IMG/VR virus record: IMGVR_UViG_3300021962_000073
Coordinates: 13,978-77,977 of that record
DNA: 64,000 bases
Direction: 5' to 3' (one strand)
Source: a virus
Numbering within the stretch: the stretch's first letter is position 1; each line of letters opens with the position of its first letter. The notes under the pieces were generated by a model. That model had not been told where the DNA came from and did no database searches. It saw only the letters and a list, made by a program, of their open reading frames with translations. Position numbers and translations under genes: made by a program. Below, piece after piece: positions 2,359 to 10,392 of the stretch.

Positions 2359-2432
2359 TGGGGTATGGTGAAATGGCATCACACTCGATTTTGATTCAAG
2401 TATTCTTGGTTCGATTCCAAGTACCCCTGCCA
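2359..2432 (+). tRNA. tRNA-Gln(TTG)
   Basis: Cloverleaf, anticodon loop TT-TTG-AT, T-loop TTCGATT, encoded CCA. Confidence 0.9.
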
Positions 2433-2439
2433 AAATTTA

Positions 2440-2532
2440 GGAAGTGTGGCAGAGCCCGGTTTAATGCAATGCTCTTGAAAAGCATCGGACGTTAAAAGCG
2501 TTCCGTGAGTTCGAATCTCACCGCTTCCACCA
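2440..2532 (+). tRNA. tRNA-Ser(TGA)
   Basis: Loop CT-TGA-AA, long variable arm, CCA. Confidence 0.92.
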
Positions 2533-2540
2533 AATTTAAT

Positions 2541-2632
2541 GGAAAGATGGATGAGTGGTTTAAATCGGCACCCTGCTAAGGTGTTGGTTTGCGAAAGCAG
2601 GCCCGTGGGTTCGAATCCCACTCTTTCCACCA
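2541..2632 (+). tRNA. tRNA-Ser(GCT)
   Basis: Loop CT-GCT-AA, long variable arm, CCA. Confidence 0.92.
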
Positions 2633-2638
2633 AACAAT

Positions 2639-2733
2639 GGTAGGTAGCACTGGTGTGCGGCTGAGTCTTATAAGCTCGGGAGATCGGTCAGATGGGCTGA
2701 AACGGAAGAGTTCGAATCTCTTACCTACTACCA
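2639..2733 (+). tRNA. non-canonical tRNA with TAT anticodon (tRNA-Sec/allo-tRNA-like fold)
   Basis: GGTAGGT/ACCTACT acceptor, D-arm GCAC-TGGT-GTGC, 6-bp anticodon stem with loop CT-TAT-AA, long V-arm, TTCGAAT, ACCA. Confidence 0.7.
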
Positions 2734-2740
2734 AATTCAT

Positions 2741-2818
2741 GCACAGGTGGCAGAGTGGCCCAATGCAAGAGTCTGCAAAACTCTAAAACCGTCGGTTCGA
2801 ATCCGACCCTGTGCTCCA
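2741..2818 (+). tRNA. tRNA-Cys(GCA)
   Basis: Loop CT-GCA-AA, U73 discriminator, CCA. Confidence 0.92.
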
Positions 2819-2875
2819 GTTGTAAAAAAACAACAACAAAAAAGTTGTTGACATAGTTTGTGGAATCTGTATAAT
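2819..2875 (+). promoter_or_regulatory. internal sigma70-type promoter with upstream GTTG-N8-CAAC box
   Basis: GTTG-TAAAAAAA-CAAC 2819-2834; TTGACA 2848-2853, 16-nt spacer, TATAAT 2870-2875. Confidence 0.8.
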
Positions 2876-2896
2876 AGATTCTGTTGATGATGTAAA

Positions 2897-2908
2897 TGCT
2901 CTTTAAAA
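2897..2908 (+). promoter_or_regulatory. boxA-like antitermination element
   Basis: TGCTCTTTAAAA between the promoter and tRNA-Glu. Confidence 0.7.
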
Positions 2909-2921
2909 ACTGTTGTTCGAT

Positions 2922-2996
2922 GCACCGTTCGTCTATCGGTTAGGACGCTAGCCTTTCACGCTGGAAAGACGAGTTCGATTCTCGTACGGTGTACCA
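2922..2996 (+). tRNA. tRNA-Glu(TTC)
   Basis: Loop CT-TTC-AC, CCA. Confidence 0.92.
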
Positions 2997-3128
2997 TATT
3001 GAAACACACTTACACTGTGGCGCTTTGTCCGTCCCTGGTTTAAAACGGGATATCGCATAAACAGTTCAAGCCCCGGTCGCTCCGGTCTGCTGTGTAAAAG
3101 AGAGACGGTCGAGTGTGTTTCAATATGG
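2994..3128 (+). ncRNA. stem-enclosed ncRNA cassette 1 (unknown)
   Basis: Perfect 17-bp closing stem CCATATTGAAACACACT/AGTGTGTTTCAATATGG around about 100 nt with internal hairpins. Confidence 0.6.
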
Positions 3129-3202
3129 GCCTATAGCTCAGAGGTCAGAGCAGTGAACTCATAATTCATTGGTCGTAGGTTCGAAACCTACTGGGCCCAC
3201 CA
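3127..3202 (+). tRNA. tRNA-CAT (Ile2 or Met)
   Basis: Loop CT-CAT-AA; GGGCCTA acceptor is Ile2-like. Confidence 0.88.
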
Positions 3203-3208
3203 AAATTC

Positions 3209-3282
3209 GCGGGTATAACTTAGTGGTAAAGTAACTGGCTTTTAACCAGTAAATCCGAGTTCGATTCTCGGTGCCCGTACCA
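3209..3282 (+). tRNA. tRNA-Lys(TTT)
   Basis: Loop CT-TTT-AA, CCA. Confidence 0.92.
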
Positions 3283-3287
3283 AATAT

Positions 3288-3374
3288 GGATGCGTAGCCA
3301 AATGGTTGACGGCAGCGGGCTGTAAACCCGTGACATAAGAAACGCTGGTGGTTCGAATCCATCCGCATCCACCA
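3288..3374 (+). tRNA. tRNA-Tyr(GTA)
   Basis: Loop CT-GTA-AA, extended variable region, CCA. Confidence 0.92.
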
Positions 3375-3383
3375 AGTTTAGAT

Positions 3384-3459
3384 GGGGGTCTAGCGAGTAA
3401 CATCGCTCAGTCTTAAACGACAGCAAAAGAATGTCGAGAGGACATCCAATTGCGCCCCT
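3384..3459 (+). ncRNA. possible small multi-stem RNA
   Basis: GGGGT/GCCCC closing stem with hairpins AGCGA/TCGCT, GTC/GAC and ATGTC/GACAT; no T-loop or CCA. Confidence 0.35.
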
Positions 3460-3464
3460 TAATC

Positions 3465-3539
3465 GGTTCCATAGTATATCGGCGAGTATAGCGCCCTGTC
3501 ACGGCGCAGGAACGGGTTCGAGTCCCGTTGGGACCGCCA
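3465..3539 (+). tRNA. tRNA-Asp(GTC)
   Basis: Loop CT-GTC-AC, G73, CCA. Confidence 0.92.
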
Positions 3540-3545
3540 GAATGA

Positions 3546-3621
3546 TCCGGAGTAGCACAGCGGTAGTTGCAGCGCACTGTTAATGCGCCTGTCGTTGGTT
3601 CGATCCCAACCTCCGGAGCCA
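3546..3621 (+). tRNA. tRNA-Asn(GTT)
   Basis: Loop CT-GTT-AA, CCA. Confidence 0.92.
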
Positions 3622-3623
3622 AA

Positions 3624-3700
3624 GCCCTCTTACTCCAATTGGTAGAGAGGACGGTCTTAGAAGCCGTAAAGTCTCAGTTCGAATCTGAGAGAGGGCACCA
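3624..3700 (+). tRNA. tRNA-Leu(TAG), short variable arm
   Basis: Loop CT-TAG-AA, only about 5 nt of variable region, CCA. Confidence 0.85.
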
Positions 3701-3822
3701 TATTGAAATATTCTGAGTAGCTACAGCGGAACAACTGATTGCTTGCCAATTCTAGACAAAGCAAGGATCAGCCGTGAAGAGGGGCTATCGCGGATTCAAG
3801 TGCCACAGAATGTTTCAATATG
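3699..3822 (+). ncRNA. stem-enclosed ncRNA cassette 2 (homologous to the tmRNA intervening segment)
   Basis: 17-bp closing stem 3699-3715/3806-3822; cargo shares sequence and covarying stems with 21658-21753. Confidence 0.75.
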
Positions 3823-3823
3823 A

Positions 3824-3945
3824 CCATATTGAAGCGCATAATCGATAGTATACTCAGAACAGGAGTGACTGCCTGGTGCGTATACTTGTAGAGAGATGTA
3901 AAAAGGCCCCGCTGGTCACGGTTATCTCAGTGCGTTTCAATATGG
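3824..3945 (+). ncRNA. stem-enclosed ncRNA cassette 3 (unknown)
   Basis: 15-bp closing stem CCATATTGAAGCGCA/TGCGTTTCAATATGG; internal AGTATAC/GTATACT and GAGAT/ATCTC stems. Confidence 0.6.
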
Positions 3946-3959
3946 TTCTGCAAAATTGA

Positions 3960-4080
3960 TGATGGCAAATCCGCCCAACCATCAGGGCGACTACTTAACC
4001 CTATTGAACGTCTTGCCAACGAGGAGTGGAGAATAGGGGAGTCCAAGAGGACTCTTAAACGGGTGATGGTAACCATACCT
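3960..4080 (+). ncRNA. possible structured RNA with pseudoknot potential
   Basis: CGCCC/GGGCG, CCCTATT/AATAGGG and GAGTCC/GGACTC stems; loop ACCATCA is complementary to TGATGGT 4064-4070. Confidence 0.45.
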
Positions 4081-4084
4081 TTTC

Positions 4085-4162
4085 GGGCCTCTAGCTCATG
4101 TTGGTTAGAGCAGCGAACTCATAATTCGTTGGTGCGCGGTTCGACTCCGCGGGGGCCCACCA
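4085..4162 (+). tRNA. tRNA-CAT (Ile2 or Met)
   Basis: Loop CT-CAT-AA, CCA. Confidence 0.88.
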
Positions 4163-4175
4163 TATATAATGTATT

Positions 4176-4250
4176 GGGCTGCTAGTGATAATGGGAGCAC
4201 GCCGCCTTTGCACGGCGGAGGTTGGAGTTCGATCCTCCAGCGGTCCACCA
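4176..4250 (+). tRNA. tRNA-Ala(TGC)
   Basis: Loop TT-TGC-AC, G3:U70 pair, CCA. Confidence 0.92.
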
Positions 4251-4258
4251 AGTTTTTC

Positions 4259-4333
4259 GCCCCTATAGTTAAATGGCTATAACAGTTGCCTTGTAAGCAT
4301 CAATTCCTAGTTCGATTCCAGGTGGGGGCACCA
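4259..4333 (+). tRNA. tRNA-Thr(TGT)
   Basis: Loop CT-TGT-AA, CCA. Confidence 0.9.
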
Positions 4334-4340
4334 AGTTTTA

Positions 4341-4418
4341 CCGAGTGTAGGATAGTCCGGTTATTCCGCCTGCTTTGGGAGCAGGAAATCGTGTGTTCGA
4401 ATCACACCACTCGGACCA
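4341..4418 (+). tRNA. tRNA-Pro(TGG)
   Basis: Loop TT-TGG-GA, C1:G72, CCA. Confidence 0.92.
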
Positions 4419-4426
4419 GTTTCTAT

Positions 4427-4505
4427 TCCGCAGAACCCGAGCAAGGTGCATGGGCTTGACTGTTAATCAATGGTTAGCAGGGTTCGATTCCCTGATGCGG
4501 AGCCA
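4427..4505 (+). tRNA. second, atypical tRNA-Asn(GTT)
   Basis: Loop CT-GTT-AA; unusual D-arm and 7:66 mismatch; CCA. Confidence 0.75.
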
Positions 4506-4513
4506 ATTTCAGA

Positions 4514-4587
4514 TGCGGGTTGGAGAAAAGGTATCTCGGGAGTCTCATAAGCTCCAGTTGGTGGTTCGATTCCATCATCCGCTACCA
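4514..4587 (+). tRNA. tRNA-CAT, initiator (fMet)-like
   Basis: 1:72 mismatch (T:T), loop CT-CAT-AA; anticodon stem GGAGT/GCTCC. Confidence 0.8.
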
Positions 4588-4593
4588 AGTTAC

Positions 4594-4668
4594 GGTTCAA
4601 TGACGTAGAAAGATGCGTACCGGTTTCATAAGCCGAGGAGAGTGGAGCGTTACCACTTTGAACCACCA
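4594..4668 (+). tRNA. tRNA-CAT with atypical T-loop
   Basis: GGTTCAA/TTGAACC acceptor, loop TT-CAT-AA, T-loop AGCGTTA, CCA. Confidence 0.75.
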
Positions 4669-4677
4669 GGAGATATT

Positions 4678-5418
4678 ATGAATATTGACGAAATTGTTAA
4701 AGTACCATATACAACACAACCAAGAATGATACGAAATACTGGTGAAGTTTTTAATAAAACTCCCGATAAAAAATATTTTGAAGAGAAGAAAATTCAATTA
4801 GATAAATTTGGTTATGATTTGTATGGTATGAATATACCTTGCATTACAGAAAAAGTTATTGAAAAATGTGAATCTTTTTTAGGTAAACCTGTAACTGGTG
4901 ATATCGTAGATTTCGCAATGAACTTTGAAGAAGATATTGCGATTATGCACCATGGTGTTTTGTCTGCAATTTGTTTTTGTTTTCCCAGTTCTTGGATTCC
5001 TTTTTACGGTCTAGACAAAACACTGGAAGAAATACACCGACCTGTGGCTGATGGTGATCATCTTCGGCGTGTAAGTTCGAAACTTACAAAGACAATGGCA
5101 GATCCTATTCTAGGAAGTTTTCTTAGATATGTATGGACTATTACAAAAGTTCCAGATTTAAGTAATCATCCTGAAGTAAAACAAAATTATGATGATGCAG
5201 AATTAACATTCGATAATCTCTATTTTAGATTGGAGAAACAAACAACATTACCATTGAATGATGGTAAGACTAGTTTGTTTTTTGTGAAAGTTGAAGTTGT
5301 TCCATTAAAAAATGTTTGGTCACCACTAATTAAAGAGAGTATTGATTCTATGAGTGATGCGATTATTCAATATAAAAATTTAAAAGAAATTAAAACGGTC
5401 CTTAGTTCAATGGATTAG
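4678..5418 (+). CDS. DUF3445 / heme-dependent oxidative N-demethylase alpha-subunit-like protein
   Basis: CFPSSW...IHRPV...LYFRLEKQT...LFFVKV motifs; ATG 4678 after SD AGGAG; stop lies inside tRNA-Arg. Confidence 0.75.
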   Translation: MNIDEIVKVPYTTQPRMIRNTGEVFNKTPDKKYFEEKKIQLDKFGYDLYGMNIPCITEKVIEKCESFLGKPVTGDIVDFAMNFEEDIAIMHHGVLSAICFCFPSSWIPFYGLDKTLEEIHRPVADGDHLRRVSSKLTKTMADPILGSFLRYVWTITKVPDLSNHPEVKQNYDDAELTFDNLYFRLEKQTTLPLNDGKTSLFFVKVEVVPLKNVWSPLIKESIDSMSDAIIQYKNLKEIKTVLSSMD

Positions 5419-5471
5419 AATCCCTTGCTACGAACGAGGAGACGGGAGTTCGATTCTCTCAGGACCGGCCA
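5396..5471 (+). tRNA. tRNA-Arg(ACG)
   Basis: Loop CT-ACG-AA, CCA; overlaps the 3' end of the upstream CDS. Confidence 0.88.
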
Positions 5472-5476
5472 ATTAT

Positions 5477-5551
5477 GCCCCGTTAGCTGAGATGGATTAG
5501 CAACGTCTTGATAAGGCGTAGAGAATGGATCGATACCATTACGGGGTACCA
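5477..5551 (+). tRNA. tRNA-Ile(GAT)
   Basis: Loop TT-GAT-AA, variant T-loop ATCGATA, CCA. Confidence 0.85.
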
Positions 5552-5556
5552 TCAAT

Positions 5557-5631
5557 CTCGGTGTAGTGTTAATGGCAGCACGAGAGTCTCCAAAACTCCA
5601 AGATGCGGTTCGAGTCCGTACACCGAGGCCA
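5557..5631 (+). tRNA. tRNA-Trp(CCA)
   Basis: Loop CT-CCA-AA, G73, CCA. Confidence 0.9.
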
Positions 5632-5648
5632 TTTTATAGGAGTGAGAT

Positions 5649-6119
5649 ATGTACAACAAAAAAATTAATTTAAATGAAGTGAAAGCATTCATCGATAGTT
5701 GTGGTCCTAATACCAAAGTTTATCTTGGATGCGATTCTGAGAAAGTTAAAATTAATGGTGTATGGCATGCGGATTATATTATAGCCATTGTTGTACATAT
5801 GAACAGCAAGCATGGTTGTAAAATTTTCGGTCAAATTACTCGTGAACGTGATTATGACCAAGCACGAAATAAACCAAGAATGCGATTGATGAATGAAGTA
5901 TATAAAGTTGCCGAGATGTATCTTGAATTAGCGGCAATGATTGATGTTGAAATTGAAGTTCATCTTGACATCAATCCAAATGAAGAGTATAATTCAAATA
6001 TTGTAATCAATGAGGCGATTGGCTACATAAAAGGAATGTGTAATGTTGTTCCTCTTGTAAAACCAAATGCTTTTGCGGCTTCATATGCAGCCGATAGATT
6101 GAAAAGTTTAGTAGCTTAA
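5649..6119 (+). CDS. RNase H-like YkuK family (DUF458) protein
   Basis: VYLGCDS...EVHLDIN...KPNAFAASYAAD motifs. Confidence 0.85.
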   Translation: MYNKKINLNEVKAFIDSCGPNTKVYLGCDSEKVKINGVWHADYIIAIVVHMNSKHGCKIFGQITRERDYDQARNKPRMRLMNEVYKVAEMYLELAAMIDVEIEVHLDINPNEEYNSNIVINEAIGYIKGMCNVVPLVKPNAFAASYAADRLKSLVA

Positions 6120-6121
6120 TT

Positions 6122-6198
6122 GCGGGTATGGTGTTTAATGGCTAGCACGACAGCCTTCCAAGCTGACAGTATCGGTTCGAATCCGATTACCCGCTCCA
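6122..6198 (+). tRNA. tRNA-Gly(TCC)
   Basis: Loop CT-TCC-AA, U73, CCA. Confidence 0.92.
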
Positions 6199-6215
6199 TA
6201 TTTTTATATAAATGA

Positions 6216-6752
6216 ATGGAACTTAAATCTTTTGTCAAACATTATGAAAATGTATTGAGCCCCCAAACTTGCGAACGAATAATCCAAGAATTTGAGAACA
6301 ATCGTTCACATATCACTCAATACGATAATGAGCATTACAAGTTTGATCAGTTAGATTTAAATACATCTGGCAATCAACTTTTAGCGAAAGCATTTATACA
6401 ACAGGTCGTACCATATCTGAAAAATTATATTAGTTTGTTGAGTGTTGAACCTTATGTTAAGATTCGAGGTTTTGAAAATGTACGCATCAAAAAATATCTG
6501 AAAGGATCAGATTATAAATTCAAAACTCATGTTGATGTTGATGATAAAGATTCGGCAGTTCGATATTTGATTTTTATTTTGTATTTAAATGATAACAATG
6601 GATGTACAACTTTTCCTAATCTAGGATTGTCTTTCAAACCAAAACAAGGAAGTATGATTATGTTTCCTCCGTTTTGGATGTTTCCTCATTCAGGTGAAAC
6701 ACCGACAGACAATGATAAGTATATTATGATGAGTTGTCTTCACTATAGTTAA
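6216..6752 (+). CDS. 2OG-Fe(II) oxygenase (prolyl 4-hydroxylase-like)
   Basis: HVD...LYLND...FPPFWMFPH...KY facial-triad pattern. Confidence 0.85.
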   Translation: MELKSFVKHYENVLSPQTCERIIQEFENNRSHITQYDNEHYKFDQLDLNTSGNQLLAKAFIQQVVPYLKNYISLLSVEPYVKIRGFENVRIKKYLKGSDYKFKTHVDVDDKDSAVRYLIFILYLNDNNGCTTFPNLGLSFKPKQGSMIMFPPFWMFPHSGETPTDNDKYIMMSCLHYS

Positions 6753-6753
6753 A

Positions 6754-6843
6754 GCAGGAGTGGAGAAATCGGTAAACTCAGTGGACTTAAAATCCACCGG
6801 CACTAAAAACGCCTTGCGGGTTCAAGTCCCGCCTCCTGCACCA
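6754..6843 (+). tRNA. tRNA-Leu(TAA)
   Basis: Loop CT-TAA-AA, long variable region, CCA. Confidence 0.92.
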
Positions 6844-6847
6844 CAAC

Positions 6848-6922
6848 CTGACCGTAGTTAAATGGATATAACATGGGTCTTCTAAACCCAGATTCCAGGT
6901 TCGATTCCTGGCGGTCGGGCCA
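6848..6922 (+). tRNA. tRNA-Arg(TCT)
   Basis: Loop CT-TCT-AA, CCA. Confidence 0.92.
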
Positions 6923-8064: not shown

Positions 8065-8732
8065 TAGTTCGCCAATGGATTATCTAATGCTTTTTTAATC
8101 TTATCATCAACTTCACGGCGAATTGTTCTTATTTCATTATTCGTTTCACGTTCAATTCGATTTACCCTTTCATTAACTCCTTGAACTGTCGCATCTACTT
8201 GCTTTTGCATTTCTCGCACAGATGAATCTGTTGATCTACGAATTTCTTTTATTTCCCCATCAACTTGCTTACGAATTTCTTTGAAGTCAACTTCAACTTG
8301 TCTGCGAACTTCAATAACCGCTCTCTCAACTTCTCTCTGTGCGACCTTACTGCTTCTTTCTACGCCTTCCAATACACCTTCTGTTCTACGAATATCACCT
8401 TTAAGGTTCTGATTGATATCACGAGTATAACCAACCACCTTTTCGCTATTTTCTTCTAGTTTAATAATTCTTGCTTCATATTCGCTGAAATCTGGTGCGA
8501 CATAATTCGCTATTTTCTTTTTCATTCCCATATAATCATTGTATGCTTCAAAACATCCATATAGTCCACCTATAACTGATGAAACAATACCAAATGCAAT
8601 CATGAGTTTTGCAGGTGTAAACTCATATCCACCAATGCTGATAACGGTATCTTTACTCGCATACTTTTTCATAGCCGCTTCTGCGGCTTCTACCTTTTTG
8701 TTTAAATCTACTTTATCTTCTGTACTGCTCAT
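8064..8732 (-). CDS. membrane-anchored coiled-coil protein
   Basis: One TM segment then 11-residue amphipathic repeats, ends ALDNPLAN. Confidence 0.75.
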   Translation of the reverse strand: MSSTEDKVDLNKKVEAAEAAMKKYASKDTVISIGGYEFTPAKLMIAFGIVSSVIGGLYGCFEAYNDYMGMKKKIANYVAPDFSEYEARIIKLEENSEKVVGYTRDINQNLKGDIRRTEGVLEGVERSSKVAQREVERAVIEVRRQVEVDFKEIRKQVDGEIKEIRRSTDSSVREMQKQVDATVQGVNERVNRIERETNNEIRTIRREVDDKIKKALDNPLAN

Positions 8733-10392
8733 CTACCATCTCCCTATGAATTCTATCTGAACGTTGATTGAGTTGTCTTAATGCTCTAGCATTGTCTTGT
8801 ATCGTCACACGTTTATAAATATCTTCAGATTTGTAGAACGGCACATCAGGTATTTTTACTTCTAAGTATTGACTAAATCCAGGAACCTCCGCCATTGAAG
8901 CTAAAGCAACGTCTTGTGGATCTCTCTGACTGCTTCTTTGAGCGGCAACAGCGGCTGCTCTCGCAGTCTCCCTTGCACTATTTCTTGATTGCTGTTGCTG
9001 TGTTGTGTTTCTTGACGGTGATTGCGATCCACCTGTTGATGATGGTGATACCGATAATCCTTGTCCAAGTGGTTGAGGCGTTTGTATCTTTTCTTCAGGT
9101 TTGGAGATAATCTGATTTACAATTGGATCACTCGTAGCTTGTGGCGTAGTTAATAACTTCGCTACATCCTCGTTCCCAACAGACGGCACATTTAGTGGAG
9201 AAGAAACGACAGAGGTTACTGCTGTCGTAATTGGTTGTGTTACTGTCTCAATCACCTGCTTCTTTCTAAAAGCGTCTGCATATCCTGGGCAACCAGAATT
9301 GTATAGAGGGTTTGCCATACATTGCTGATTGAAAAACGCTTGTTGATAAAGAGGACACGATGTTGAAAAAAGGGGATTAGCGGTACACTGTTGATTCAAG
9401 TAAGCTGATTCATACAGTGGACACGATGTATTGGACAATGGGTTCTCATTACAGTTCTTATCGAATAATGCTTTAGCATATCCTGGACAGGTTGAATTGT
9501 ATAACGGATTTGCTGTACATTGTTGTTGCAAAAATGCTTGTTGATACTCTGGACAAGTAGGAGAAAATAGTGAGTTTAAACTACATTGCTGTGCTTGATA
9601 AGCAACTGCGTATCCTGGGCAATTGGTTGCAAATAGAGGATTTGATGAGCATTGCTGATTAAACCATGCTTGTTGCCAACCTGGACAAGACTGACTGAAT
9701 AGTTGGTTAATCGCACATTGTTGCTGCAAGTACGCTTGCTGATAACCTTCGCACGTTGGTGAAGCGAGAGGATTCGCACCGCATGGATCCAGTGAATATC
9801 TCAATCGAATATCTATATCTCTTATCTCAGGGCCGTAATATCCTTTCCAATTTCCCTCATCTCTGCTCGATATCGATATGTAAACATTACCTAAAGATGC
9901 TAGACTATACTTGTTAGCAAAGTCTTCAGTTCCAGTAAAGCGAGTCCAATCGTTTATTCGTCTACTGTAATCATAAGTTTTACTTTCTATGATGTTCGCA
10001 TTTGTGGAATCATAAAGAGACACGCGAATACCTAATGGATCGAAAGATTGAGTTTGATAAGCTCCTGCGTTAGCGTTTTTTATAGTCCATCCGTATTGAT
10101 ATCCTCTGACGATAATGCCAGTACCATTCAACGCCTGATTGACTGCTATGCTCTGATATAATACTGAACCGCCGTAGCTAAAAAGTATAGCTCCGTCAGC
10201 CGATCTTTGGACTGGACATGGTCCTCCTGTCGTTCCACCCCATATCATTCCATTGTGCTGAGTCAAACATCCCTGCCAACCTGATTGATTGACAATATTA
10301 CTGGATGTTTGAATATCTTGGGCGTTAGAGTAGAAGGAGAAGAACAGCCAAGACGCCAAGCCCAGCAGAAATTTTTTGCCAGAAACTTGCAT
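8713..10392 (-). CDS. secreted Cys-rich repeat protein
   Basis: Signal peptide, N-terminal beta-rich domain, eight 22-aa CxxNPLxxxxCPxYxxAxxxQQ repeats, S/T/Q-rich linker. Confidence 0.8.
   Translation of the reverse strand: MQVSGKKFLLGLASWLFFSFYSNAQDIQTSSNIVNQSGWQGCLTQHNGMIWGGTTGGPCPVQRSADGAILFSYGGSVLYQSIAVNQALNGTGIIVRGYQYGWTIKNANAGAYQTQSFDPLGIRVSLYDSTNANIIESKTYDYSRRINDWTRFTGTEDFANKYSLASLGNVYISISSRDEGNWKGYYGPEIRDIDIRLRYSLDPCGANPLASPTCEGYQQAYLQQQCAINQLFSQSCPGWQQAWFNQQCSSNPLFATNCPGYAVAYQAQQCSLNSLFSPTCPEYQQAFLQQQCTANPLYNSTCPGYAKALFDKNCNENPLSNTSCPLYESAYLNQQCTANPLFSTSCPLYQQAFFNQQCMANPLYNSGCPGYADAFRKKQVIETVTQPITTAVTSVVSSPLNVPSVGNEDVAKLLTTPQATSDPIVNQIISKPEEKIQTPQPLGQGLSVSPSSTGGSQSPSRNTTQQQQSRNSARETARAAAVAAQRSSQRDPQDVALASMAEVPGFSQYLEVKIPDVPFYKSEDIYKRVTIQDNARALRQLNQRSDRIHREMVDEQYRR

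What the first reader, a model, noticed from the sequence alone, without database searches (positions are those of the whole stretch)
2994..3945. Three different RNA cargos packaged in the same CCATATTGAA...TTTCAATATG closing stem
Seen: 15-17-bp stems with nearly identical outer sequence enclose three dissimilar 90-100-nt structured inserts (2994-3128, 3699-3822, 3824-3945). Two begin at the CCA of the preceding tRNA; the third is preceded by ACCA although no tRNA lies upstream. In cassette 1 the stem brings the 3' end of tRNA-Glu next to the 5' end of the next tRNA, the same geometry as the tmRNA intervening segment. Established: T4 has stable RNAs of unknown function (RNA C and D) in its tRNA cluster. 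Inference: a modular carrier in which a shared stem (nuclease, ligase or protein-binding site) releases and protects interchangeable small RNAs through tRNA processing.
Basis: partly seen in the sequence, partly recalled or inferred. Interest (0 to 1): 0.7.

Follow-up and report, generated by a model that had tools for sequence, protein, structure and literature searches.

The report
Stem-clamped small RNA cassettes between phage tRNAs
The tRNA gene cluster of this uncultured T4-like water phage holds three different small folded RNAs, each closed by the same ~19-base-pair helix; that helix encloses about a hundred unrelated small RNAs in many uncultured phages, I found no description of it, and its function is unknown.

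Summary
Cassettes at 2994-3128, 3699-3822 and 3823-3946 are closed by the same 16-18 bp stem and hold three unrelated, well-folded inserts.

The stem is not a local oddity. A stringent pattern finds it in at least 119 IMG/VR phage contigs and in none of 185,579 prokaryote genomes. BLAST finds no copy in 50,697 deposited phage records, and Rfam has no match.

It is always inside a tRNA array and in one orientation relative to the tRNAs. It is rich in G-U pairs that work only on the tRNA-sense strand, and 22 variants carry compensated double changes, so it is an RNA helix. It usually starts at ACCA, which in 39% of cases is a real tRNA 3' end, and ends in UGGU.

I found about 97 cargo types. The window's cargos 1 and 3 show covariation. 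Cargo 2 also occurs with two other closing stems. Close relatives swap or lose whole cassettes exactly at the arms.

The best reading is that these are small RNAs co-transcribed with the tRNAs and clamped by the stem, with arms that double as recombination handles. The processing enzyme and the cargo functions remain unknown, and no phage-encoded partner protein was found. Expression was not shown. This scan had already noted the same family on other phage DNA.

The parts
2848..2875 (+). Consensus sigma-70-type promoter (TTGACA-16-TATAAT) upstream of tRNA-Glu. It is the likely start of the transcript that carries cassettes 1-3.
   Evidence: 12 of 12 matches. No + strand terminator-like site lies between it and 7200.
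2922..2996 (+). tRNA-Glu(UUC). Its 3' CCA (2994-2996) forms the first base pairs of the cassette 1 stem.
2994..3128 (+). Cassette 1: arms 2994-3011 / 3111-3128 and cargo 3012-3110, a multi-hairpin fold.
   Evidence: z = -4.1; alignment A1 of 11 sequences has 7 pairs with compensatory changes. The cargo family was seen in 19 contigs.
3127..3202 (+). tRNA-Met/Ile2(CAU). Its first two bases, G3127 and G3128, are the last bases of the cassette 1 3' arm.
3624..3700 (+). tRNA-Leu(UAG). Its CCA (3698-3700) overlaps the 5' arm of cassette 2.
3699..3822 (+). Cassette 2: arms 3699-3715 / 3806-3822 and cargo 3716-3805.
   Evidence: z = -4.07. The cargo core is conserved in L112, L181 and L184, and L181 and L184 close it with different stems. 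Cassette 2 is missing exactly in relatives L162 and L125.
3823..3946 (+). Cassette 3: arms 3823-3838 (starting ACCA) / 3931-3946 (ending UGGU) and cargo 3839-3930.
   Evidence: z = -4.46; alignment A2 of 12 sequences has 7 compensatory pairs. The cargo family was seen in 24 loci.
3946..4084 (+). Structured spacer 'D' downstream of cassette 3, without canonical arms. It is the conserved right flank at which relatives carry either cassette 2 or cassette 3.
   Evidence: z = -2.2; 85-92% identical in L112, L160 and L162.
3375..3464 (+). Another non-tRNA structured spacer, between tRNA-Tyr and tRNA-Asp, closed by its own short G-C stem. It is not a member of the canonical-arm family.
   Evidence: z = -3.0. 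It is absent from relative L125. An RNA-library contig with 2 mismatches covers it.
5649..6119 (+). PF04308 'RNaseH_like' gene inside the tRNA array. It is the commonest neighbour of the cassettes but is not universal.

Best explanation
The three cassettes belong to a large, apparently undescribed family of phage small RNAs that are encoded inside tRNA arrays and transcribed with the tRNAs.

Each unit is an independent structured RNA (the cargo, 30-110 nt) clamped by a conserved helix of about 19-20 bp. The helix consensus is ACCAUAUUGAA-RYRCAYU paired with its complement ending in UUCAAUAUGGU. It often begins with the discriminator and CCA of the upstream tRNA and ends at or just before the first base of the next RNA.

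Inferred mechanism, none of it shown here:
- The helix forms in the precursor transcript.
- The cuts that mature the flanking tRNAs, or a double-strand cut in the two-turn helix, free the cassette. Candidates are RNase P at the downstream tRNA 5' end, an endonuclease just 3' of CCA, and RNase III.
- The paired termini shield the released RNA from exonucleases.
- The cargo is the working part and acts in trans. About a hundred different cargos imply many different targets.

At the DNA level the conserved arms also serve as short homology handles. Through them, whole cassettes are gained, lost and exchanged between phages.
For: The helix works at the RNA level:
- After orienting loci by tRNA strand, all 448 cargo-to-cargo BLAST matches run in the same orientation and none in the opposite one.
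- Stem positions 10-15 carry about 170 G-U pairs on the tRNA-sense strand against 1 A-C.
- In the outer 9 bp, 22 of 171 distinct elements have compensated double changes and 12 have uncompensated mismatches. One variant has a triple compensated change, GAA:UUC to CUA:UAG.

The cargos are real folds:
- There are 7 compensatory pairs each in cargo 1 and cargo 3, with z-scores near -4.

The link to tRNAs:
- Every well-paired hit lies in a locus with tRNAs, and poorly paired chance hits lie in loci with none.
- 77 of 197 elements share the CCA of an upstream tRNA. The 5' flank is xC in 169 of 197 and the 3' flank is GU in 149 of 197.
- Copies sit in one region per genome.

Sequence conservation is not an ascertainment artefact:
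- In loci chosen through a protein, 58 of 1,252 tRNAs are followed by a CCA-anchored stem of at least 14 bp. Of these, 36 have the canonical arm, 9 have near variants and 13 have other arms.

Modularity and exchange:
- About 97 cargo clusters sit behind the same arms.
- Cargo 2 occurs behind three different stems.
- The window has tRNA-Leu-C2-C3-D, L162 has tRNA-Leu-C3-D, L160 has tRNA-Tyr-C3-D and L112 has tRNA-Tyr-C2-D, all joined at the arms.

Other points:
- Helix length peaks at 19-20 bp, about two turns.
- A consensus promoter lies upstream and no terminator lies in between.
Against: - No direct evidence of expression or of RNA ends. The four metatranscriptome runs are contigs that mostly cover tRNAs of relatives and leave 3708-3945 uncovered.
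- No processing enzyme was identified. There is no phage RNase III in 21 contigs, and PF04308 is absent from one complete genome that carries the element.
- A simple clamp does not explain why the outer half of the helix is so strongly conserved in sequence. That conservation suggests a sequence-specific partner that I did not find.
- G-T wobbles would also be tolerated in a single-stranded DNA hairpin.
- No target of any cargo was found. There is no antisense match above chance in the phage's own 78 kb.
Confidence: 0.55

Rival explanations
1. Protein-docking scaffold, like a Y RNA. In this reading the conserved outer helix is a sequence-specific binding site for one host or phage protein, such as a Ro60-like ring, a dsRNA-binding protein or a dedicated endonuclease. 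The cargos would be modules presented to, or regulated by, that protein, so the helix is the functional core rather than a passive clamp.
For: - The outer 11 bp are far more conserved than base pairing alone requires. 126 of 171 elements are canonical, and 36 of 58 structure-ascertained stems have the canonical arm.
- Helix length is narrowly distributed at 19-20 bp.
- A few cargos carry a true T-arm stacked on the helix, as in YrlA.
Against: - The TROVE/Ro60 family PF05731 is absent from the window's record and from 20 element-bearing contigs, two of them complete genomes.
- Rfam YrlA does not match the cassettes.
- No ORF family is present in more than about half of the canonical-bearing loci.
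- T-loop motifs are not enriched in cargos: 12 observed against 10.5 expected.
- Compensated changes in the outer helix are tolerated.
Confidence: 0.17
2. A control device for tRNA maturation. In this reading the helix exists to sequester the CCA end of the upstream tRNA and the leader of the downstream tRNA. That would time or order RNase P and 3'-end processing, or insulate tRNA folding. The inserts would be only loops of that device.
For: - 39% of elements start on a real tRNA CCA.
- In cassette 1 the helix pairs the tRNA-Glu CC with bases +1 and +2 of tRNA-Met.
- The ACCA:UGGU closing pairs are conserved.
Against: - 114 of 197 elements have no tRNA directly upstream and 143 of 197 have none directly downstream.
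- Only about 5% of tRNAs in these arrays are followed by such a stem.
- The cargos are conserved across contigs with compensatory changes, which loops of a timing device would not need.
Confidence: 0.1
3. A mobile DNA element. In this reading the arms are terminal inverted repeats, or a folded single-strand recombination site of the MITE or integron attC type, recognised by a transposase or recombinase. The RNA fold would be incidental.
For: - Cassettes behave as discrete insertion/deletion units bounded by the arms.
- The same arms flank many unrelated inserts.
- G-T wobbles could also form in single-stranded DNA.
Against: - Orientation relative to the tRNAs is fixed: 448 same against 0 opposite.
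- Copies are confined to the tRNA array and absent from 185,579 prokaryote genomes.
- There is no target-site duplication, because the flanks AC and GT are inverted and extend the helix.
- No cargo is of ORF size and there are almost no orphan arms.
- No transposase or integrase family recurs nearby.
- Interior helices covary as RNA helices do.
- Homologous recombination between 17-20 nt arms is enough to explain the indels.
Confidence: 0.05

Closest known systems
Phage T4 stable RNAs C and D (rnaC and rnaD, species 1 and 2), and the small stable RNAs of the T5 tRNA region
   Same: They are non-tRNA small RNAs of about 120-140 nt encoded in a T4-type phage tRNA cluster and co-oriented with the tRNAs. 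Their 5' and 3' ends are paired, and their function is still unknown (PMC3014915 and PMC9697503).
   Different: They share no sequence similarity and lack the CAUAUUGAA arms. T4 has two fixed RNAs. Here one conserved helix carries about 100 interchangeable cargos across many phages.
RNase III processing stalks of bacterial rRNA operons and of phage T7 early transcripts
   Same: Sequences flanking a mature RNA pair into a helix of about two turns that marks the unit for excision. The helix length here peaks at 19-20 bp.
   Different: Those stalks are specific to each operon and are not conserved in sequence between distant genomes. Cleavage here is untested, and the phages encode no RNase III.
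Y RNAs / YrlA bound by Ro60 (Rfam RF02553)
   Same: A conserved closing helix made of the 5' and 3' ends carries a variable, sometimes tRNA-like module.
   Different: Rfam YrlA has no match on the cassettes. No TROVE gene occurs in 21 contigs. Only 2 of 97 cargo types have a perfect T-arm.
Intervening segment of two-piece (circularly permuted) tmRNA genes
   Same: The geometry is the same: a segment that begins at a CCA end and is removed by tRNA-type processing.
   Different: ARAGORN and Rfam find no tmRNA parts. The flanking RNAs are two independent tRNAs, and the insert itself is the conserved, structured part.
PeSL cassettes (promoter-early stem-loops) that mediate modular shuffling in T4-type phages (PMC2839356 and PMC4122927)
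   Same: Short conserved repeats flank variable modules in T4-like genomes and allow swaps, insertions and deletions by recombination.
   Different: PeSLs flank protein genes and act as promoter and terminator. Here the repeats are inverted, form an RNA helix and flank small RNAs.
Spacer-derived small RNAs of bacterial tRNA operons, for example the 3'ETS of leuZ in E. coli (from my own knowledge; not checked here)
   Same: A functional small RNA is released as a by-product of tRNA precursor processing.
   Different: Those are single, unclamped spacers of host operons. They have no shared helix and no cassette family.

Membership tests
T4 RNA C/D-type phage stable RNAs | Encoded within a phage tRNA gene cluster on the tRNA strand | tested here: met
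T4 RNA C/D-type phage stable RNAs | Sequence or structure homology to T4 rnaC or rnaD | tested here: not met
   only chance-level or T-arm-like short matches.
T4 RNA C/D-type phage stable RNAs | Accumulates as a discrete stable RNA during infection | not testable with these tools
   The RNA-library contigs give no ends or levels.
Y RNA / YrlA-Ro60 system | Match to the YrlA covariance model | tested here: not met
   no hit on any cassette at E <= 10.
Y RNA / YrlA-Ro60 system | Ro60 (TROVE) protein encoded with it | tested here: not met
   0 of 21 records, including 2 complete genomes. A host-encoded Ro60 cannot be excluded.
Two-piece tmRNA intervening segment | Flanked by the tmRNA acceptor and coding pieces | tested here: not met
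   ordinary tRNAs flank the cassettes and no tmRNA was detected.
RNase III processing stalk | Continuous dsRNA of about two helical turns formed by sequences flanking the mature RNA | tested here: met
   the length mode is 19-20 bp and most elements fall within 17-22 bp.
RNase III processing stalk | Staggered cleavage by RNase III | not testable with these tools
   This needs rnc mutants or an in vitro cleavage assay.
MITE / transposon with terminal inverted repeats | Dispersed copies in both orientations with target-site duplications | tested here: not met
   448 same orientation against 0 opposite; one region per genome; the flanks are inverted, not direct.
Integron gene cassette (attC) | Cassettes carry ORFs and lie next to an integrase | tested here: not met
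   cargos are at most about 135 nt and none is ORF-sized; no recombinase among the recurrent neighbours. The integrase family itself was not searched genome-wide.
Any Rfam 15 family | Covariance-model match to the cargo or to the whole cassette | tested here: not met

The most novel reading that the evidence does not exclude
The conserved helix is a universal, sequence-specific 'socket' read by one conserved factor, either host or phage. In this reading, aquatic T4-like phages use it to express, stabilise and deliver a shared and freely exchangeable library of more than 100 RNA effectors, such as decoys, sponges or mimics aimed at host RNA-binding proteins and defence systems. That would be an RNA counterpart of the integron cassette system, maintained across phage lineages by recombination at the arms.
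Probability: 0.2. Interest if true: 0.85.

Novelty: new variant of a known kind. Interest (0 to 1): 0.72.

Why it matters
Phage T4's RNA C and D have had no known function for fifty years. This family shows that small RNAs embedded in tRNA operons are not a T4 curiosity. They form a large, diverse and actively exchanged gene class in environmental T4-like phages.

In loci chosen through a protein rather than through the stem, about half of the tRNA arrays with five or more tRNAs carry at least one canonical cassette (34 of 71). The shared helix gives a simple handle for three tasks: cataloguing the cargos computationally, fishing for the enzyme or protein that reads the helix, and expressing any cargo in a defined, stable form.

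If the cargos target host RNA machinery or defence systems, they would be a new layer of phage-host conflict. The clamp itself could also serve as a portable stabilising scaffold for synthetic RNAs.

Tried and rejected
- Rfam on the cassettes and on the largest cargo family gave nothing. The whole-locus scan listed only tRNAs in its visible rows.
- Ro60/TROVE is absent from all 21 records.
- Phage-encoded RNase III is absent from all 21.
- PF04308 RNaseH_like as the cognate nuclease: it is the commonest neighbour (23 of 75 loci) but is missing from complete genome G006 and from 9 of 21 contigs. Only 34 of 71 PF04308 loci with five or more tRNAs have a canonical cassette.
- A recurrent 214-aa ORF is present in only 2 of 21 contigs.
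- A Fisher scan of neighbouring ORFs against cassette presence found no family in more than half of the positive loci. The pattern looks like clade structure.
- Antisense targets of the cargos in the phage's own 78 kb: only chance-level matches of at most 13 nt.
- General tRNA mimicry: T-loop motifs are not enriched, ARAGORN calls none of the 97 cargo types a tRNA or tmRNA, and only 2 have a perfect T-arm.
- T4 rnaC and rnaD show no homology.
- Deposited phages: no BLAST match to cassettes 1-3 or to the largest cargo family beyond chance 20-mers in coding genes. The BUCT-ZZ01 cassette is unique among the 50,697 records.
- RNA libraries X19-X22 are contigs only. They cover tRNAs, the 3375-3464 spacer and fragments of cassette 1 from relatives. 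They leave 3708-3945 uncovered and give no ends, so they are no evidence either way.
- Literature searches for the motif, for structured RNAs in phage tRNA arrays and for processing stems found no description.
- An SRP-like GAAGCAGC word in the largest cargo family was not supported by Rfam.

Full report
**Observation.**
The window comes from a 78-kb IMG/VR virus record that is about 48% complete. It belongs to a T4-like phage. It has gp32, gp6, gp7, gp8 and RNase H homologues, and its gp32 is about 55% identical to those of T4-like cyanophages.

Positions 2359-6922 hold 24 tRNA genes on the + strand. Three non-tRNA inserts lie at 2994-3128, 3699-3822 and 3823-3946. Each is closed by a 16-18 bp stem with the same outer sequence, CCAUAUUGAA paired with UUCAAUAUGG.

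- Each insert folds much better than shuffled sequence, with z between -4.1 and -4.5.
- The 9-mer occurs 10 times in the window against 1.6 expected, and six of those are the arms.
- The interiors are unrelated to one another.
- Cassettes 1 and 2 start on the CCA of tRNA-Glu and tRNA-Leu.
- Cassette 3 starts with ACCA although no tRNA precedes it.
- In cassette 1 the first two bases of tRNA-Met pair with the CC of tRNA-Glu.

**It is a widespread, phage-restricted family.**
A first scan of IMG/VR for the two 9-mers 90-120 nt apart gave more than 118 loci. These split cleanly into two groups. Hits whose stem extends to at least 14 of 17 pairs all lie in loci with tRNA genes, usually many. Hits with poor stems lie in loci with no tRNAs and are chance matches.

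A stringent pattern with the extended arms has a chance expectation of about 0.03 in 596 Gb.

BLAST against 50,697 deposited phage records found no copy of cassettes 1-3 or of the largest cargo family. Rfam 15 has no match to any cassette. Literature searches found no description. Within a genome the copies sit in one region only.

**It is an RNA helix, not just a DNA palindrome.**
I oriented every locus by the strand of its tRNAs, which does not depend on the element.

- All 448 BLAST matches between cargos then run in the same orientation, and none in the opposite one.
- On that strand, stem positions 10-15 hold about 170 G-U wobbles against a single A-C. On the other strand these would be mismatches.
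- Among 171 distinct elements the outer nine base pairs are canonical in 126. They carry compensated double changes in 22, single changes that still pair in 10, and single mismatches in 12.
- One cargo-1 lineage has a triple compensated change, GAA:UUC to CUA:UAG.
- The helix usually extends two pairs outward. The 5' flank is AC in 118 and xC in 169 of 197 elements, and the 3' flank is GU in 149 of 197.
- Total helix length peaks at 19-20 bp.
- 77 of 197 elements share the CCA of a real upstream tRNA.

**The sequence conservation is not an artefact of how I searched.**
I collected 80 loci through a protein, the PF04308 gene of the tRNA array, and not through the arms. In them, 58 of 1,252 tRNAs are followed by a CCA-anchored stem of at least 14 bp that closes 50-200 nt. 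Of these stems, 36 have the canonical CAUAUUGAA arm, 9 have close variants and 13 have other sequences. Of the 71 loci with five or more tRNAs, 34 carry at least one canonical cassette.

**The cargos are many, structured and separable from the stem.**
- The 171 distinct elements fall into about 97 cargo clusters with interiors of 30-110 nt. None is ORF-sized, and there are almost no orphan arms.
- Cargo 1 of the window was found in 19 contigs and has 7 base pairs with compensatory changes in an 11-sequence alignment.
- Cargo 3 was found in 24 loci and has 7 such pairs in a 12-sequence alignment.
- The core of cargo 2 is nearly invariant in four contigs. It is closed by the canonical arms in two of them and by two quite different stems in L181 and L184.
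- tRNA mimicry is not general. T-loop motifs are not enriched, and only 2 of 97 cargo types have a perfect T-arm next to the 3' arm.

**Cassettes are exchanged at the arms.**
Close relatives of the window differ by whole cassettes, with junctions in the arms or at ACCA:

| Locus | Arrangement |
|---|---|
| window | tRNA-Leu-C2-C3-D |
| L162 | tRNA-Leu-C3-D; also lacks [C1 + tRNA-Met] |
| L160 | tRNA-Tyr-C3-D |
| L112 | tRNA-Tyr-C2-D |
| L125 | C1 plus an extra cassette; lacks C2 |

Recombination between arms 17-20 nt long explains these patterns without any dedicated enzyme. Such arms are direct repeats between cassettes. This parallels the PeSL-mediated module shuffling described for T4-type phages (PMC2839356 and PMC4122927).

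**Search for a partner.**
- There is no Ro60/TROVE and no RNase III in the window's record or in 20 other carrier contigs, two of which are complete genomes.
- The commonest neighbouring gene is a PF04308 'RNaseH_like' protein (window 5649-6119). It occurs in 23 of 75 loci and always on the tRNA strand.
- That gene is missing from a complete carrier genome, and half of the PF04308 loci lack canonical cassettes.
- No other ORF family tracks the cassettes beyond clade structure.

Any specific reader of the helix is therefore more likely a host factor, or it was not detectable here.

**Expression.**
A perfect consensus promoter lies at 2848-2875, and no + strand terminator follows it. The phage or near relatives occur in lake, river, estuary and marine DNA runs and in some metatranscriptomes. 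The RNA data are contigs that mainly cover tRNAs and give no RNA ends. Transcription and processing are therefore inferred and not shown.

**Most likely mechanism (confidence 0.55).**
The cassettes are co-transcribed with the tRNAs. The two-turn helix makes each one an autonomous folding unit.

Release could come from tRNA-maturation cuts or from an RNase III-type cut in the helix. One maturation cut is RNase P at a downstream tRNA. The other is an endonuclease just 3' of CCA. The sequence CCAU|AUU fits the RNase E preference RN|WUU as I recall it, but that site lies inside a helix.

The paired termini would stabilise the product, and the cargo would act in trans.

The arms additionally act as recombination handles. 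The unexplained point is the strong sequence conservation of the outer half-helix. It keeps a protein-docking reading of the Y-RNA type alive (0.17). A pure tRNA-maturation switch (0.10) and a mobile DNA element (0.05) fit the data less well.

**Relation to known systems.**
The setting matches T4 RNA C and D, whose roles are still unknown (PMC3014915 and PMC9697503), but there is no homology.

A cultured T4-like cyanophage, BUCT-ZZ01, lacks the canonical arms but has stem-closed cassettes with recognisably related arms. Examples are ACCAUAAUUAAACAUGCU and CCAUAAUUAUCUUAAAGCACAUU, with z between -3.5 and -6.3. This phage offers an experimental system.

**Earlier notes of this scan.**
Four earlier notes described the same or a closely related family on other phage DNA: e1-5995327, e1-5379341, e1-5669030 and e1-5959599. 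I re-derived the main claims independently. I could not confirm the Ro60 link by a Pfam search.

Noticed in passing
window 2639-2733: ARAGORN calls this 95-nt tRNA Ile(UAU). It has a long acceptor stem and a long variable arm, and it gives a sub-threshold Rfam tRNA-Sec match (30.6 bits). It may be a selenocysteine-shaped or 'allo' tRNA with an unusual anticodon.
   Followed up: no
window 4642-5418, 5649-6119, 6216-6752: Three protein genes sit inside the tRNA array on the tRNA strand: an HODM_asu-like protein, a PF04308 RNaseH_like protein and a 2OG-Fe(II) oxygenase. PF04308 relatives occur in 582 viral contigs. 71 of the best 80 loci carry at least 5 tRNAs, always co-oriented with the gene. 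These could be RNA-modifying or RNA-processing enzymes.
   Followed up: partly
window 3946-4084: A 139-nt structured spacer ('D') without canonical arms is conserved at 85-92% in three relatives. It contains a degenerate arm-like word, AACCCTATTGAA at 3997-4008, that is complementary to the 3' arm of cassette 3.
   Followed up: partly
window 3375-3464: A 90-nt spacer between tRNA-Tyr and tRNA-Asp folds with z = -3.0 and is closed by a G-C stem. It is missing from relative L125. An RNA-library contig with 2 mismatches covers it.
   Followed up: partly
L189 (Synechococcus phage BUCT-ZZ01, ON615601) 8543-8642 and 9125-9312: In this cultured cyanophage a 21-nt stem formed by flanking sequence encloses tRNA-His itself, and another encloses an odd tRNA-like gene. 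In this phage a tRNA can therefore be the cargo of a closing stem.
   Followed up: no
window 3812-3835: Where cassettes 2 and 3 abut, the 3' arm plus A plus the 5' arm form a palindrome. It drew a weak hit to a CRISPR-repeat model (14 bits, E = 4.7), which I judge to be chance. Arms of neighbouring cassettes could pair with each other as an alternative fold.
   Followed up: no
largest cargo family, e.g. L024 4700-4826: The most frequent cargo behind the canonical arms (17 distinct sequences, 18 loci) is absent from this window. It has highly conserved GAAGCAGC and GAUGAAAAG words, and Rfam has no match to it.
   Followed up: partly
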